DNA of 64,000 nucleotides from Litorimonas sp. Its GTDB lineage: Bacteria > Pseudomonadota > Alphaproteobacteria > Caulobacterales > Maricaulaceae. The stretch lies in contig JBPOEY010000002.1 of NCBI GenBank assembly GCA_051251645.1, positions 70,093 to 134,092 of the forward strand, written 5' to 3'. Made by a program: the position numbers and the translations under genes. This document shows positions 13,340 to 15,672 of this stretch, in pieces. Positions within the stretch are counted from its first letter, which is position 1. Each line of letters opens with the position of its first letter. The notes under the pieces are model-generated. The model searched no databases and was not told the origin of the DNA. It was given only the letters and a program-made list of their open reading frames with translations.

Positions 13340-13681
13340 ATGAAACGTTTCACCCTTCTCCTGTTTGCGATCCTGCTGGGATCAGCGGTGCCCGCCTTTG
13401 GCGGCGAGGTCACGCGCGAAAATGCTAGCGCCAAGTTCGAATGGAAAAGCACCGAATGCCAGCGCCCGTCCCGCCCCTATCCGCAAAAAAACGACCCGAC
13501 GCGACAGGCGCAGATGCAGAATTTTACGCTGAAAGTGGCCTATTATCTCGACTGCCTCAAAGGTGAAGCCCAACGTGATTTCGATCGCGCGCAAGTCGAA
13601 ATGCACGAAGCCATTCAACGCAAGCTGCAAGCGGAAACGGATAAGATGAACGACGATGTCGTACGAATGGTGAAGCAATGA
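13340..13681 (+). CDS. Secreted hypothetical protein
   Basis: GAGG RBS, signal peptide (SAVPAFG), two Cys; followed by a perfect hairpin. Confidence 0.75.
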   Translation: MKRFTLLLFAILLGSAVPAFGGEVTRENASAKFEWKSTECQRPSRPYPQKNDPTRQAQMQNFTLKVAYYLDCLKGEAQRDFDRAQVEMHEAIQRKLQAETDKMNDDVVRMVKQ

Positions 13682-13685
13682 CGCA

Positions 13686-13712
13686 GCCTTTTGATCCGGG
13701 GGATCAAAAGGC
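13686..13712. terminator. Perfect 12-bp hairpin (terminator-like)
   Basis: GCCTTTTGATCC-GGG-GGATCAAAAGGC immediately after a stop codon; no clear U-run on either strand. Confidence 0.55.
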
Positions 13713-14110
13713 AAGGAACCGAGAGCGCAGCGAACGGCTCCAATCTCAAGACATAGGGATATGTCCTACCGCCCATCGCGGGGTCGGCAAACAACGTTTC
13801 GTGATCAAAGTGACACGAGCGCGGGCGCTACCCTGTGACGGATAGAGAATTGAGATACCGATTTACACAGGGTCGAACCCGCGCGATTAGTAGGCGCACC
13901 CGATCAAAAACGCTGTGCCCCGACGGCCCGCTATGAGCTCACGCCGGTGACGATGAGACGGGACACAGGACTTTCGATCCCACACCCGCCAACCGCCCGA
14001 TGTCGCGAAGGCGCACGGCGACGAGGTGTAAATCTCGCCGTTAATCCGCTCGTTCTCATCCGCTAATCGTCATCAGTCGTTCCGCCGGATGGAACCATGC
14101 GCGCCGCATT
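13713..14110 (-). ncRNA. Candidate large structured non-coding RNA (unassigned)
   Basis: No ORF of 60 aa or more covers 13715-14088. Many stems use G-U pairs valid only on the minus strand, with a GAAA tetraloop and two crossing long-range pairings (see findings). Confidence 0.5.
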
Positions 14111-14285
14111 ACCTCGCCCATCGTCCAGCCCACCAAACCCCCGCCAGCCTGAGAATAATGCCTCTCTCGTGTCCGAAGCGGGTGAGGCTAACAGACCACG
14201 GTTTCGGTAAGCGGGGATGGGGTTGTGGGAAATGTGATGGGGGATGGGATTTGCGAGGGGTGTTAGCGGGAATGGATTTTTCTAT

Positions 14286-14399
14286 TTGTCATCCCGACCT
14301 AGCGCAGCGCAGAATCGCGACCTTACAGCTGTGAACCTCGCTCGCTGGATCACGCAACTGACAGGTCCCGGATCGCCAAAGGGGCGTCCGGGATGACAA
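14286..14399. repeat. REP/MITE-like element with GTCATCCCG termini
   Basis: Perfect 11-bp terminal inverted repeat TTGTCATCCCG...CGGGATGACAA downstream of nadA. Confidence 0.75.
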
Positions 14400-14499
14400 C
14401 GAGAGGTTTGATGGAGTGTTTACCTTGCCCGCCTAGACGTAAGGTGTGGCGGAGGGCGCAAATAAAATAGCCGGAATTTAACGTTCAAGCCTCACGCTG

Positions 14500-15672
14500 C
14501 TAGATCACTTTTACGTCTTTGATCGGGCTGTCCGGATCGAAGTGTCCTTTTTCCTTATCAAACTTCACATTGATCATGCGCATGACGGCGTCATAGGCTT
14601 GGGCGCGCATGGGTTCGGGCACGAGCACTTCATTGGTCCCGTCGCGCAAACACTCATAGAGGTTTTCCAGCGTGATCCGTTTCATATGCGGGCAAAGATT
14701 ACACGGGCGAACGAAATCAACGGTTGGGTTGGCCATGGCGACATTGTCAGACATGGAACATTCGGTCAGCAGGATGACTTTGCCCGGGCTGTGATCCCCG
14801 ACATAATCACTCATCGCTTTGGTGGAGCCTGTAAAGTCAGATTCTTCGACCACTTCAGGTGGGCATTCGGGGTGGGCCAGCACAACCACGCCCGGATTGG
14901 CCGCGCGCATGTCGCGCACATCTTGGGCCGAGAAACGCGCATGCACTTCACAGCGGCCATGCCACGCAATGATCTCAATATCGGTCTGACGCGCGACGTT
15001 TTTCGCGAGGAATTCATCCGGCAGCATGATGACTTTATCGACGCCCCATTCGGCGGCGATATGTTCGACAATGGCGACCGCATTTGAGCTGGTACAGCAA
15101 ATGTCGGACTCCGCTTTTACGTCCGCCGATGTGTTGACATAGGTCACGATTGGAATGCCGGGATAGCGTTGCTTGATTAATTGCACATCCGCGCCCGTGA
15201 TCGAGCTGGCGAGCGAACAGCCCGCGCGCATGGACGGAATATAGACGCGTTTATCCGGACAGAGAATTTTAGACGTCTCGGCCATGAAATGCACGCCGCC
15301 CTGAATAATGACGGTGGCGTCAGTTTTCGTCGCTTCAATCGCGAGACCAAGGCTATCGCCCACATAATCGCCTACCAGCGCAAAAATATCGGGCGTCATA
15401 TAATTATGGGCGAGAACAACCGCGTTCTTCTCGACCTTCAGTTGATTGATCGCATGGACGAGCGGCGCATAGGCCGGCCATTCAAACTCAGGAATAAAAT
15501 TGGACACTTGTGCGTAGAGGTGGTCCGTCGCGGCTTTGACCTCGTCCGTATAAGGCAAGTCCTTGGGATATCCGTCCAAGTCTTTGCCCGGCACGGCACA
15601 GACGCCGTTTTCGACTTCCAGCGTCTGGCCAATCCAGCGACCATTTTCCCAATTGAGAAGCTCTTTACCCAT
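14500..15672 (-). CDS. nadA: Quinolinate synthase
   Basis: LAHNYMTP, GVHFMAET, GCSLA, YVNTSA, DICCTSSNA, AHPECP, TECSM and CPHMK motifs. Confidence 0.97.
   Translation of the reverse strand: MGKELLNWENGRWIGQTLEVENGVCAVPGKDLDGYPKDLPYTDEVKAATDHLYAQVSNFIPEFEWPAYAPLVHAINQLKVEKNAVVLAHNYMTPDIFALVGDYVGDSLGLAIEATKTDATVIIQGGVHFMAETSKILCPDKRVYIPSMRAGCSLASSITGADVQLIKQRYPGIPIVTYVNTSADVKAESDICCTSSNAVAIVEHIAAEWGVDKVIMLPDEFLAKNVARQTDIEIIAWHGRCEVHARFSAQDVRDMRAANPGVVVLAHPECPPEVVEESDFTGSTKAMSDYVGDHSPGKVILLTECSMSDNVAMANPTVDFVRPCNLCPHMKRITLENLYECLRDGTNEVLVPEPMRAQAYDAVMRMINVKFDKEKGHFDPDSPIKDVKVI

What the first reader, a model, noticed from the sequence alone, without database searches (positions are those of the whole stretch)
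13713..14110. Unassigned ~400-nt ornate RNA with two pseudoknot-like pairings between convergent genes
Seen: an ORF-free block with many stems: GACATA/TATGTC (13750-65), CCCTGTG/CACAGGG (13831-37/13866-72), TGACGAT/ATCGTCA (13948-54/14066-72), and GATGAGACG/CGTTCTCATC. A GAAA-tetraloop hairpin (13960-13987) and GAGCCG/CGGUUC need G-U pairs valid only on the minus strand. Two crossing pairings: the hairpin-loop GATTTACAC (14026-34) is perfectly complementary over 9 nt to 13860-68, and ATCTCAA/TTGAGAT (13850-56/13743-49) crosses the CCCTGTG stem. It does not match RNase P, tmRNA, SRP, 6S or common riboswitch signatures that I can recognise. Inference: a standalone large ncRNA. The order (kissing loop, GNRA hairpin, kissing partner, small stems, final GAGCCG stem) loosely recalls a group II intron scaffold, but the domain V geometry is not canonical.
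Basis: partly seen in the sequence, partly recalled or inferred. Interest (0 to 1): 0.78.

Follow-up and report, generated by a model that had tools for sequence, protein, structure and literature searches.

The report
Multicopy large structured RNA element
The flagged stretch is part of one of about 36 copies of a 550-600-base non-coding element whose elaborate RNA fold is kept by compensating mutations; it matches no Rfam 15 family, related forms occur in tens of copies in other marine and freshwater relatives, and its function is unknown.

Summary
The structured, ORF-free block is real, but it is not a single stand-alone gene. It is the middle two-thirds of one copy (window 13679-14283, RNA sense = minus strand) of the main repeat of this Algimonas/Litorimonas-type genome: 24 near-full copies and 13 fragments, 71-97% identical.

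Rfam 15 has no match. Covariation is strong:
- 3' domain: 95.9% of cells paired, 20 of 28 pairs with double changes, 0 of 500 shuffles as good.
- 5' domain: 92.4% paired, 21 of 31 pairs with double changes.
- A long-range helix and a pseudoknot join the two domains.
- G-U outnumbers A-C 544 to 89 in helices, so the minus-strand RNA is what selection sees.

The group II intron resemblance fails.

No coding signal, terminal inverted repeats, or consistent transposase, reverse transcriptase, TnpB or IscB partner was found. Copies sit among unrelated housekeeping genes, mostly in sense with the upstream gene, and are mosaics, pointing to gene conversion. Diverged relatives occur throughout the genus and, at up to 40 or more BLAST matches per genome, in a second family of the order.

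Function is unknown.

The parts
13679..14283 (-). One full 'long-form' copy of the repeat element. The RNA sense runs from 14283 down to 13679.
   Evidence: Homology to other copies spans this range (BLAST; conservation profile; nhmmer, hmm 5-593 = C12:83787-84377; alignments).
14265..14283 (-). 5' end of the element: an A-rich stretch plus direct repeat 1 (RNA CCAUUCCCGCU).
   Evidence: The conserved terminus (A-rich)-CATCC(C/A)C(G/C)C is seen in nearly all copies, and the flanks diverge beyond it.
14223..14264 (-). Hypervariable, C/A-rich, G-poor spacer of the leader.
   Evidence: It differs even between copies that are 97-99% identical elsewhere. The leader is 40% C and 12% G, against 33% G in the body. 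It has no matches elsewhere in the genome.
14210..14222 (-). Direct repeat 2 (RNA CCCCAUCCCCGCU).
   Evidence: It is conserved and tends to vary together with repeat 1 between copies (columns 20-28 and 75-88).
14078..14203 (-). 5' domain: a UUCG-capped hairpin, a nested hairpin and the hairpin 14126-14092.
   Evidence: Model R2 matches at 143 bits. Across 54 copies, 92.4% of cells are paired, 21 of 31 pairs have double changes and 0 of 500 shuffles do as well.
14166..14173 (-). 5' strand of the pseudoknot (RNA GACACGAG), lying in the loop of the first hairpin.
   Evidence: It is complementary to 13812-13819 (I5). Two copies carry the compensating change A-U to G-C, and all but one of the one-sided changes (5 variant forms in 9 copies) give G-U. 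The equivalent pairs are GGACAG/CUGUCC in type B and GGAGGGC/GCCCUCC in type C.
13812..13819 (-). 3' strand of the pseudoknot (RNA CUCGUGUC). It can also pair locally with variable downstream partners.
14128..14138 (-). 5' strand of the long-range helix that closes the fold (RNA GUUUGGUGGGC).
   Evidence: It pairs with 13885-13895. The cognate duplex averages -15.7 kcal/mol against -11.5 for non-cognate partners, permutation p < 0.0005.
13885..13895 (-). 3' strand of the long-range helix.
13898..14077 (-). Central variable domain (160-250 nt in other copies). It includes the hairpin 14018-14043 with loop GAUUUACAC and the GAAA-tetraloop hairpin 13951-13995.
   Evidence: Modules are swapped between subfamilies (columns 266-400). 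The GAAA hairpin covaries with GC, AU, CG and UA pair types (columns 413-429). The loop GAUUUACAC occurs in 8 of 54 copies.
13763..13897 (-). 3' domain: the long helix 13884-13866/13837-13819, which encloses the conserved GUGUAAAUCGG internal loop and a pyrimidine-rich loop, plus the hairpin 13788-13768.
   Evidence: Model R1 matches at 135 bits. Across 83 copies, 95.9% of cells are paired, 20 of 28 pairs have double changes, 0 of 500 shuffles do as well, and the covariation score is 0.415 against at most 0.08 when partners are slid.
13679..13762 (-). 3' tail found in full only in 'long' copies: hairpins GACAUA/UAUGUC and GGAGCCG/CGGUUCC, the terminal hairpin 13686-13712, and the end ...CUGCGUCA, which overlaps the stop codon of the convergent 113-aa ORF.
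   Evidence: It is shared with C1:505k, C12:8.6k, C1:731k and C1:1373k, and the terminal hairpin shows compensating changes. Other copies end near 13745-13768.

Best explanation
The flagged block belongs to one copy (window 13679-14283, RNA sense = minus strand) of an undescribed multicopy element of about 540-600 nt. The element encodes no protein. It specifies a large, compact RNA.

Shown here:
- The layout is a C-rich, G-poor unstructured leader bracketed by two short direct repeats, then a 5' domain, a swappable central domain with a GAAA-tetraloop hairpin, and a 3' domain.
- A long-range helix and a pseudoknot lock the 5' and 3' domains together.
- The fold is preserved by compensating mutations in all copies and in other species.
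- The pattern of G-U pairs shows that selection acts on this strand as a single strand, almost certainly RNA.
- Copies lie in intergenic DNA next to unrelated housekeeping genes.
- Copies are mosaics of each other.

Inferred:
- The element is a non-autonomous 'passenger' that is transcribed in sense, mostly by read-through from the upstream gene. Here that gene is nadA, 215 nt upstream.
- Copies are kept alike by gene conversion.
- The element persists because the RNA itself does something. One possibility is that the RNA fold is needed for its own spread. Another is that it has been put to use as a transcript-end or insulator module, with a Rho-loading-type leader followed by a nuclease-resistant fold.

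Which of these RNA-level roles applies is not settled. I put about 0.9 on the identity (a new multicopy structured-RNA element read from the minus strand) and about 0.3 on the read-through/transcript-end role. The confidence of 0.55 given for this explanation is for the whole statement taken together.
For: - Repeat family: 32 BLAST matches and 37 nhmmer matches in the genome, 24 of them near full length. It is the dominant repeat in a self-comparison.
- No known family: no Rfam 15 hit, at gathering score across the whole window or at E <= 10 in the 13500-14600 stretch around the element.
- Strand: RNAalifold gives -241.9 kcal/mol for the minus sense against -169.6 for the plus sense. The single-sequence fold gives z = -3.96 against -1.48. 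G-U outnumbers A-C 544 to 89 in helices. UUCG and GAAA tetraloops are present.
- Covariation: 46 of 84 predicted pairs have double changes, and the formal counts with controls are. The long-range helix has p < 0.0005. The pseudoknot has compensating changes within type A and across types B and C.
- Non-coding: the longest ORFs per copy range from 42 to 163 aa and are not conserved, there is no three-base periodicity over the whole element, and the window's ORFs have no Pfam hits.
- Context: flanking genes are unrelated. The upstream gene is co-oriented in 17 of 23 copies. Between tandem genes the element is in sense in 12 cases and antisense in 3.
- Mosaicism: the nearest paralogue changes from segment to segment. 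L028 is 99% identical in the 5' domain but is not among the six closest copies in the 3' domain (the sixth is 76.6% identical). The copy downstream of nadA is also present in G021 and G041, yet it is 97% like its paralogues and only 69-75% like those orthologues.
- Breadth: at least 20 copies in G044 and G055 and 12 in G041. Matches in 7 of 8 sampled genomes of the genus, plus weak matches in a second family, where BLAST finds 45 and 38 matches in two genomes.
Against:
- No convincing promoter or terminator lies in or next to the element.
- Six of 23 copies have a divergently oriented upstream gene, so read-through cannot explain all copies.
- A simple stabiliser or terminator role would not need so elaborate a fold.
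- The means of spread is unknown. No terminal inverted repeats, no target duplication and no partner enzyme were found.
- The copy-number distribution is patchy and bursts look recent: in G055 contigs break inside copies. That suits a selfish element better than a host function.
- The CM alignments used for the pair counts are fitted to the model, which inflates the percentage paired.
Confidence: 0.55

Rival explanations
1. The RNA is the working part of a mobile system. Either its fold is a ribozyme, or it is a guide or bridge RNA for a nuclease or recombinase encoded elsewhere in the genome and not yet recognised, and that activity copies the element to new sites. The hypervariable leader between the two direct repeats would be the target-recognition part.
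For: - All other known dispersed, complex bacterial RNAs (group II introns, IscB/TnpB omega RNAs, IS110 bridge RNAs) need their fold for mobility; this rests on my own knowledge.
- The distribution is patchy and the element is high-copy, with recent bursts.
- The fold is conserved in every copy.
- The leader varies even between near-identical copies.
Against: - No TnpB, no Y1 transposase and no IscB RRXRR domain (though that search had no positive control).
- IS110 is absent from 4 of 5 high-copy genomes.
- rve is a pseudogene or below the cut-off in G055 and G041.
- No reverse transcriptase in G021, G044 or G055.
- Leader spacers match nothing else in the genome and have a strong C/A bias, which is unlike sampled target sequence.
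- No protein gene recurs next to copies.
Confidence: 0.15
2. It is a family of genes for a trans-acting cellular RNA. That RNA would be a scaffold of a ribonucleoprotein or a self-assembling RNA particle, like the large ornate RNAs OLE, ROOL and GOLLD, and it happens to be amplified to tens of copies.
For: - Its size (about 450-600 nt), compact pseudoknotted fold, tetraloops and modular peripheral domain resemble those RNAs.
- PMC12286853 reports that GOLLD, ROOL and OLE form homo-oligomeric complexes.
- Some copies are kept at orthologous places across species.
Against: - OLE, ROOL and GOLLD are, to my knowledge, single-copy or phage-borne rather than 20-45 dispersed copies per genome.
- No promoter or terminator is evident.
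- Copy number varies from about 1 to more than 40 between related species.
- Rfam models of those families do not match.
Confidence: 0.15
3. It is an ordinary DNA-level intergenic repeat of the MITE, REP or ERIC kind. The apparent RNA structure would be a by-product of palindromic DNA or of a single-stranded DNA intermediate.
For: - It is dispersed, strictly intergenic, non-coding and multicopy, with a patchy distribution.
- G-T wobble is also tolerated in single-stranded DNA.
Against: - No terminal inverted repeats: every inverted repeat is internal.
- No transposase or RAYT partner.
- The fold is not a simple palindrome. It is a multi-domain structure with long-range helices, a pseudoknot and RNA-type UUCG and GAAA tetraloops, all conserved by compensating changes across species.
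- The strand asymmetry is strong.
Confidence: 0.1
4. It is a cis-acting leader (riboswitch, thermosensor or attenuator) that controls the gene immediately downstream.
For: - The RNA 3' end lies 0-121 nt before a co-oriented start codon in about 10 copies.
- The conserved CUCGUGUC can pair either with the distant GACACGAG or with a local partner, which is a switch-like choice.
- Several downstream genes are stress- or translation-related: rnr, clpB, bipA, an ABC-F gene and surE.
Against: - In 9 of 24 copies, including the window's, the next gene is convergent.
- Downstream genes share no pathway.
- There is no terminator or Shine-Dalgarno-sequestering element at the 3' end.
- The element's copy number and mobility are unlike known riboswitches.
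Confidence: 0.07
5. It is a degenerate, ORF-less or circularly permuted group II intron, the resemblance noted by the first reader.
For: - It is about 600 nt, ORF-less and multicopy, lies downstream of genes in sense, and has a GAAA hairpin.
- The 3' tail of long copies has a GAGCCG...CGGUUC hairpin that recalls domain V.
Against: - No hit to Intron_gpII or the group-II-D1D4 models even at E <= 10.
- The GAGCCG hairpin is too short and is absent from most copies.
- The GAAA hairpin has no AGC triad and its lower stem varies.
- There are no GUGYG or AY boundaries.
- G021, G044 and G055 have no reverse transcriptase.
- Circularly permuted group II RNAs are about 900 nt and have recognisable domains 5 and 6 (PMC8637638).
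Confidence: 0.03

Closest known systems
Large ornate bacterial RNAs of unknown function (OLE, ROOL, GOLLD, raiA)
   Same: It is hundreds of nucleotides long, with a multi-domain fold supported by covariation, tetraloops, pseudoknots and variable peripheral modules. It encodes no protein and has no known function.
   Different: There is no sequence or model match. This element is dispersed in 20-45 copies per genome, is restricted to part of one alphaproteobacterial order, lies in sense downstream of ordinary genes, and evolves in concert.
Bacterial intergenic repeat families (REP/BIME/REPIN, ERIC, Correia, RUP, BOX, and the Caulobacter CIR elements of Chen and Shapiro 2003)
   Same: It is strictly intergenic, non-coding, multicopy and patchy between species. 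It is often co-transcribed with neighbouring genes, and its copies have a mosaic structure.
   Different: It is five to twenty times longer than REP-type units. It has no terminal inverted repeats and no RAYT or transposase partner. It has a complex non-palindromic RNA fold. It has no conserved or enriched CcrM GANTC site (0.9 per copy against 2.0 expected), which is the feature CIR elements are named for (PMC10969869; the details of the original paper are recalled from memory, as it was not held).
Mobile structured RNAs: group II introns (including ORF-less and circularly permuted forms) and IscB/TnpB omega RNAs (HEARO)
   Same: It is a large, conserved RNA fold present in many dispersed copies, with a patchy distribution.
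   Different: It has none of their defining RNA motifs and no partner protein.

Membership tests
Group II intron (Rfam RF00029, group-II-D1D4) | Domain V: a 34-nt hairpin with an AGC triad, a 2-nt bulge and a GNRA loop, detectable with the Rfam models. | tested here: not met
   There is no hit at E <= 10 over 13500-14600 on either strand. The GAAA hairpin has a variable lower stem without AGC.
Group II intron (Rfam RF00029, group-II-D1D4) | A reverse transcriptase/maturase, within the element or elsewhere in the genome. | tested here: not met
   The only RT in G000 is DRT6-like and is unique to this genome. G021, G044 and G055 have no RVT_1 match.
IscB/TnpB omega RNA (HEARO, IS200/IS605) | Linkage to tnpB or iscB and to a Y1 transposase. 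| tested here: not met
   PF07282 and PF01797 are absent from G000. PF14239 is absent from 5 genomes, though that search had no positive control. No gene recurs next to copies.
MITE | Terminal inverted repeats at both ends. | tested here: not met
   The repeat finder finds only internal inverted repeats and none joining 13679-13700 to 14260-14283.
MITE | A target-site duplication and a parent insertion sequence whose ends match. | tested here: inconclusive
   No empty site could be recovered because the orthologous loci either carry the element or are rearranged. rve, DDE_Tnp_1 and IS110 are not consistently present in high-copy genomes. Other transposase families were not searched.
REP/REPIN | Short (20-40 nt) palindromic units and a RAYT (Y1) gene. 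| tested here: not met
   The unit is 540-600 nt with a multi-domain fold, and there is no Y1_Tnp.
Caulobacter CIR repeats | A conserved CcrM methylation site (GANTC) within the repeat. | tested here: not met
   There are 28 GANTC sites in 32 copies, against about 65 expected, and none is at a position shared by most copies. The CIR sequences themselves were not available for comparison.
OLE / ROOL / GOLLD / raiA / IMES and all other Rfam 15 families | A match to the family's covariance model. | tested here: not met
   Searches cover the window. Searches cover the related types B and C.
Riboswitch or other cis-regulatory leader | A constant position upstream of functionally related genes. | tested here: not met
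   Downstream genes are unrelated, and 9 of 24 are convergent.

The most novel reading that the evidence does not exclude
The element is a new class of self-propagating RNA. Its conserved pseudoknotted fold would be a ribozyme, or an RNA that recruits a host enzyme, and this would let the element copy itself into new intergenic sites without any element-encoded protein. The hypervariable leader between the two direct repeats would take part in site choice.
Probability: 0.1. Interest if true: 0.95.

Novelty: new variant of a known kind. Interest (0 to 1): 0.72.

Why it matters
Few large bacterial RNAs with complex folds are known, and each has opened a line of work (RNase P, group I and II introns, OLE, ROOL, GOLLD, omega RNAs).

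Here is a 450-600-nt pseudoknotted RNA whose fold is maintained in every one of tens of dispersed copies per genome, in at least two families of one alphaproteobacterial order, with no partner protein in sight.
- If the fold serves the element's own spread, it would be a new kind of mobile RNA.
- If it serves the cell, it would be a new abundant RNA module at the ends of ordinary genes.

In practice, the many natural variants already give a covariation-rich alignment for structure modelling. Culturable type strains exist (for example Algimonas arctica KCTC 32513), so the question can be tested directly.

Tried and rejected
- Known RNA families: Rfam at the gathering score and at E <= 10 gave nothing but a chance sX5 match at E = 4.1. 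Types B and C also have no match.
- Recurrent neighbouring protein genes: the only recurrences were common paralogues, namely SDR, enoyl-CoA hydratase and a response regulator/kinase pair.
- The single reverse transcriptase of the genome as partner: it is DRT6-like, absent from all 47 other genomes of the genus, and the degenerate copy 1.15 kb downstream of it is probably chance.
- Insertion next to terminator or REP hairpins: this looked striking by eye, but upstream flanks fold no better than random genomic windows.
- tRNA linkage: only 2 tRNA genes in the 32 loci checked, no recurrent linkage.
- Leader spacers as guides: they match nothing else in the genome.
- Coding potential: no conserved frame and no Pfam hit. 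The small mod-3 differences in the two short sub-alignments rest on about 42 columns per phase and vanish over the whole element.
- Viral contigs hold no copy.
- CcrM sites are not enriched.
- Literature searches found no description. The Chen and Shapiro 2003 paper was not held.

Full report
**What is at the site.** Window 13682-14499 is non-coding. It lies between a conserved 113-aa plus-strand ORF (13340-13681, no Pfam match) and nadA on the minus strand (14500-15672). As RNA, the minus strand of 13690-14120 folds far better than shuffled sequence (z = -3.96, 0 of 100 shuffles as good). The plus strand does not (z = -1.48). Rfam 15 gives no match at the gathering score. At E <= 10 it gives only a chance sX5 hit at E = 4.1 outside the flagged block.

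**It is a repeat.** A search of the window's own genome (3.54 Mb, 29 contigs) with the block found 32 matches at 67-100% identity.
- With flanks included, homology runs from about 13679 to 14283.
- A profile built from the copies finds 37 places: 24 cover at least 450 of 598 profile positions, and 13 are fragments.
- A self-comparison of the genome shows that this family makes up most of its repeated DNA. The assembled genome holds almost no multicopy insertion sequences.
- The flagged coordinates therefore cover about two-thirds of one unit.

**Which strand, and is the structure real?**
- On 32 copies from this genome and from G021, RNAalifold gives -241.9 kcal/mol in the minus sense against -169.6 in the plus sense. 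In the minus sense, 46 of 84 predicted pairs show changes on both sides.
- I built covariance models of the 3' domain (window 13763-13897) and the 5' domain (14078-14203) and aligned all copies found in several species.
  - 3' domain, 83 sequences: 95.9% of cells paired, 20 of 28 pairs with double changes, covariation score 0.415 against 0.05-0.08 when partners are slid, 0 of 500 shuffles as good.
  - 5' domain, 54 sequences: 92.4% paired, 21 of 31 pairs with double changes, 0.407 against 0.06-0.16, 0 of 500 shuffles as good.
  - These alignments are fitted to the models, which flatters the percentage paired. The number of distinct pair types and the slid controls are less affected.
- In the helices, G-U pairs outnumber A-C pairs 544 to 89. 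Hairpins are capped by UUCG and GAAA tetraloops. Selection therefore acts on the minus-sense single strand, most simply RNA.

**Architecture, 5' to 3' on the minus strand.**
- The element starts with an A-rich end and direct repeat 1 (14283-14265), then a 42-nt hypervariable spacer (14264-14223) and direct repeat 2 (14222-14210).
  - This leader is 40% C and 12% G. The body is 33% G.
  - The leader differs even between copies that are 97-99% identical elsewhere.
- Next come the 5' domain, a central domain of 160-250 nt whose modules differ between subfamilies, and the 3' domain.
- A long-range helix joins 14138-14128 to 13885-13895. Cognate strands pair at -15.7 kcal/mol against -11.5 for strands taken from other copies (p < 0.0005), and divergent copies show multi-position compensating changes.
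- A pseudoknot joins GACACGAG (14173-14166, in a hairpin loop) to CUCGUGUC (13819-13812).
  - Two copies carry the exact A-U to G-C exchange, and all but one of the one-sided changes (5 variant forms in 9 copies) give G-U.
  - At the same positions, related type B RNAs have GGACAG/CUGUCC and type C RNAs have GGAGGGC/GCCCUCC.
  - CUCGUGUC can instead pair with variable local partners, so alternative folds are possible.
- About five 'long' copies, including the window's, carry an extra 3' tail (13762-13679). It ends in a covarying hairpin and ...CUGCGUCA, which overlaps the stop codon of the convergent ORF.

- The 9-nt complementarity between the loop GAUUUACAC (14034-14026) and GUGUAAAUC (13868-13860) is real. 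The loop is kept while its stem covaries, but it is present in only 8 of 54 copies, one of them in another species. Other copies carry different hairpins there, some GAAA-capped. It is at most a subfamily-specific tertiary contact.
- The ATCTCAA/TTGAGAT pairing is no better between cognate than between non-cognate partners (p = 0.6).

**Not coding, and not a known mobile element.**
- No reading frame is conserved. The longest ORF per copy is 42-163 aa, there is no three-base periodicity over the element, and the window's ORFs have no Pfam hit.
- There are no terminal inverted repeats.
- TnpB and Y1 transposase are absent. The IscB RRXRR domain was not found, though that search had no positive control.
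- The only reverse transcriptase is a DRT6-type defence enzyme found in no other genome of the genus. G021, G044 and G055, which hold many copies, have no RVT_1 match.
- rve is only a pseudogene in G055 and below the cut-off in G041. DDE_Tnp_1 and IS110 are mostly absent.
- No protein gene recurs beside copies, apart from common paralogues.
- No group II motif is detectable. Circularly permuted group II RNAs are about 900 nt with clear domains 5 and 6 (PMC8637638).

**Context and evolution.**
- Flanking genes are ordinary and unrelated. Downstream: acyl-CoA dehydrogenase, xseA, rnr, MatE, clpB, ABC-F, surE, bipA. Upstream: carboxylase, dnaB, clpX, malic enzyme and others.
- With a codon-usage gene caller, the upstream gene is co-oriented with the RNA in 17 of 23 copies. 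Between tandem genes the element is in sense 12 times and antisense 3 times.
- No promoter or terminator stands out.
- The impression that copies sit just after hairpins did not survive a control.
- Copies are mosaics. The copy at C1:1473846-1474502 is 99% identical to the window's in the 5' domain and 97% in the centre, but it is not among the six closest copies in the 3' domain (the sixth is 76.6% identical).
Yet it is 97% like its paralogues and only 69-75% like these orthologues.
- A copy upstream of xseA has a counterpart at the orthologous site in G044.
- This pattern is concerted evolution by gene conversion.
- In G055 several contigs end inside copies, which is a sign of very similar, recently multiplied copies.

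**Distribution.**
- An exact-pattern scan of 185,579 species genomes found the element only in Algimonas arctica, A. ampicilliniresistens, a Litorimonas MAG and two unclassified MAGs. A scan of viral contigs found none.
- The 3'-domain model finds at least 20 copies in G044 and G055, 12 in G041 and a few in other genomes.
- A broader model finds matches in 7 of 8 sampled genomes of the genus, including 15 in G057 and 7 each in G043 and G042. It also gives weak matches in another family of the order.
- Those weak matches led to clearly related elements of about 330-600 nt. Type B occurs in the genus, and type C in the second family. They have the same layout: a C-rich leader with an ATCC-type motif, a 5' domain, a 3' domain with a ...GAAAYSGKUAU... 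loop, and the equivalent pseudoknot. They show their own compensating changes.
- The core of type C is found by BLAST in 38 of 39 and 24 of 24 sampled genomes of two genera of that family. Two complete genomes there give 45 and 38 matches.
- None of these types matches Rfam.
- A look-up of this scan's earlier notes by sequence found no look-alike. Earlier notes describe analogous but unrelated multicopy structured repeats in other phyla.

**Interpretation.**
- Shown: this is a new, large, pseudoknotted RNA fold encoded by a dispersed, non-coding, multicopy element. It evolves in concert, mostly lies in sense downstream of genes, and is widespread in part of one alphaproteobacterial order.
- Inferred: it is transcribed, probably largely by read-through, and the RNA itself is the functional unit.
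- The choice lies between a selfish role, where the fold is needed for spread, and a co-opted one. The G-poor, C-rich, unstructured leader of about 70-80 nt has the composition of a Rho-loading site, and the compact fold could protect or mark transcript ends.
- Neither role is demonstrated, and the elaborate conserved tertiary structure is more than a stabiliser would need.
- The closest published repeat by host and position, the Caulobacter CIR elements, is defined by a CcrM site. That site is neither conserved nor enriched here. The original paper was not available.

Noticed in passing
window 14287-14396: A separate small palindromic repeat lies between the element and nadA, with ends GTCATCCCGAC... 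and ...GTCCGGGATGAC. A second copy, 84% identical, lies at C12:697528-697637 beside another copy of the large element.
   Followed up: partly
G000 C23:112079-113710 (outside the window; locus L064/L163): A 544-aa DRT6-type antiviral reverse transcriptase (PADLOC Drt6, E = 2.8e-131) sits directly downstream of sdhA. It is found in none of the 47 other genomes of the genus. A degenerate copy of the RNA element lies 1.15 kb downstream on the same strand.
   Followed up: partly
L021/L025 flanks (G000 C12:822941-823213 and C1:426215-426486), and upstream of type B and C copies in other genomes: REP-like hairpin repeats of the form CCTCCCCC-loop-GGGGGAGG, or CACCTTCTCCC...GGGAGAAGG, recur next to copies. 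By BLAST they are found in several families of the order, independently of the large element.
   Followed up: no
window 13679-13681: The stop codon of the conserved 113-aa ORF (13340-13681) lies inside the terminal TGACGCAG of the element, so the insertion or its end sequence supplies or overlaps the gene's stop.
   Followed up: no
G000 C12:463056-464148 (outside the window): A 144-bp tandem repeat, 78-89% identical between units, lies inside a long minus-strand ORF (643 aa within the 2.3-kb stretch examined). It was first mistaken for an insertion sequence in the self-comparison.
   Followed up: partly
G014 and G047 (same genus): These two fragmented genomes hold 16 and 7 RVT_1 matches in long open frames (up to 1700 aa). 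They may be multicopy retroelements or contamination, and are unrelated to the RNA element.
   Followed up: no
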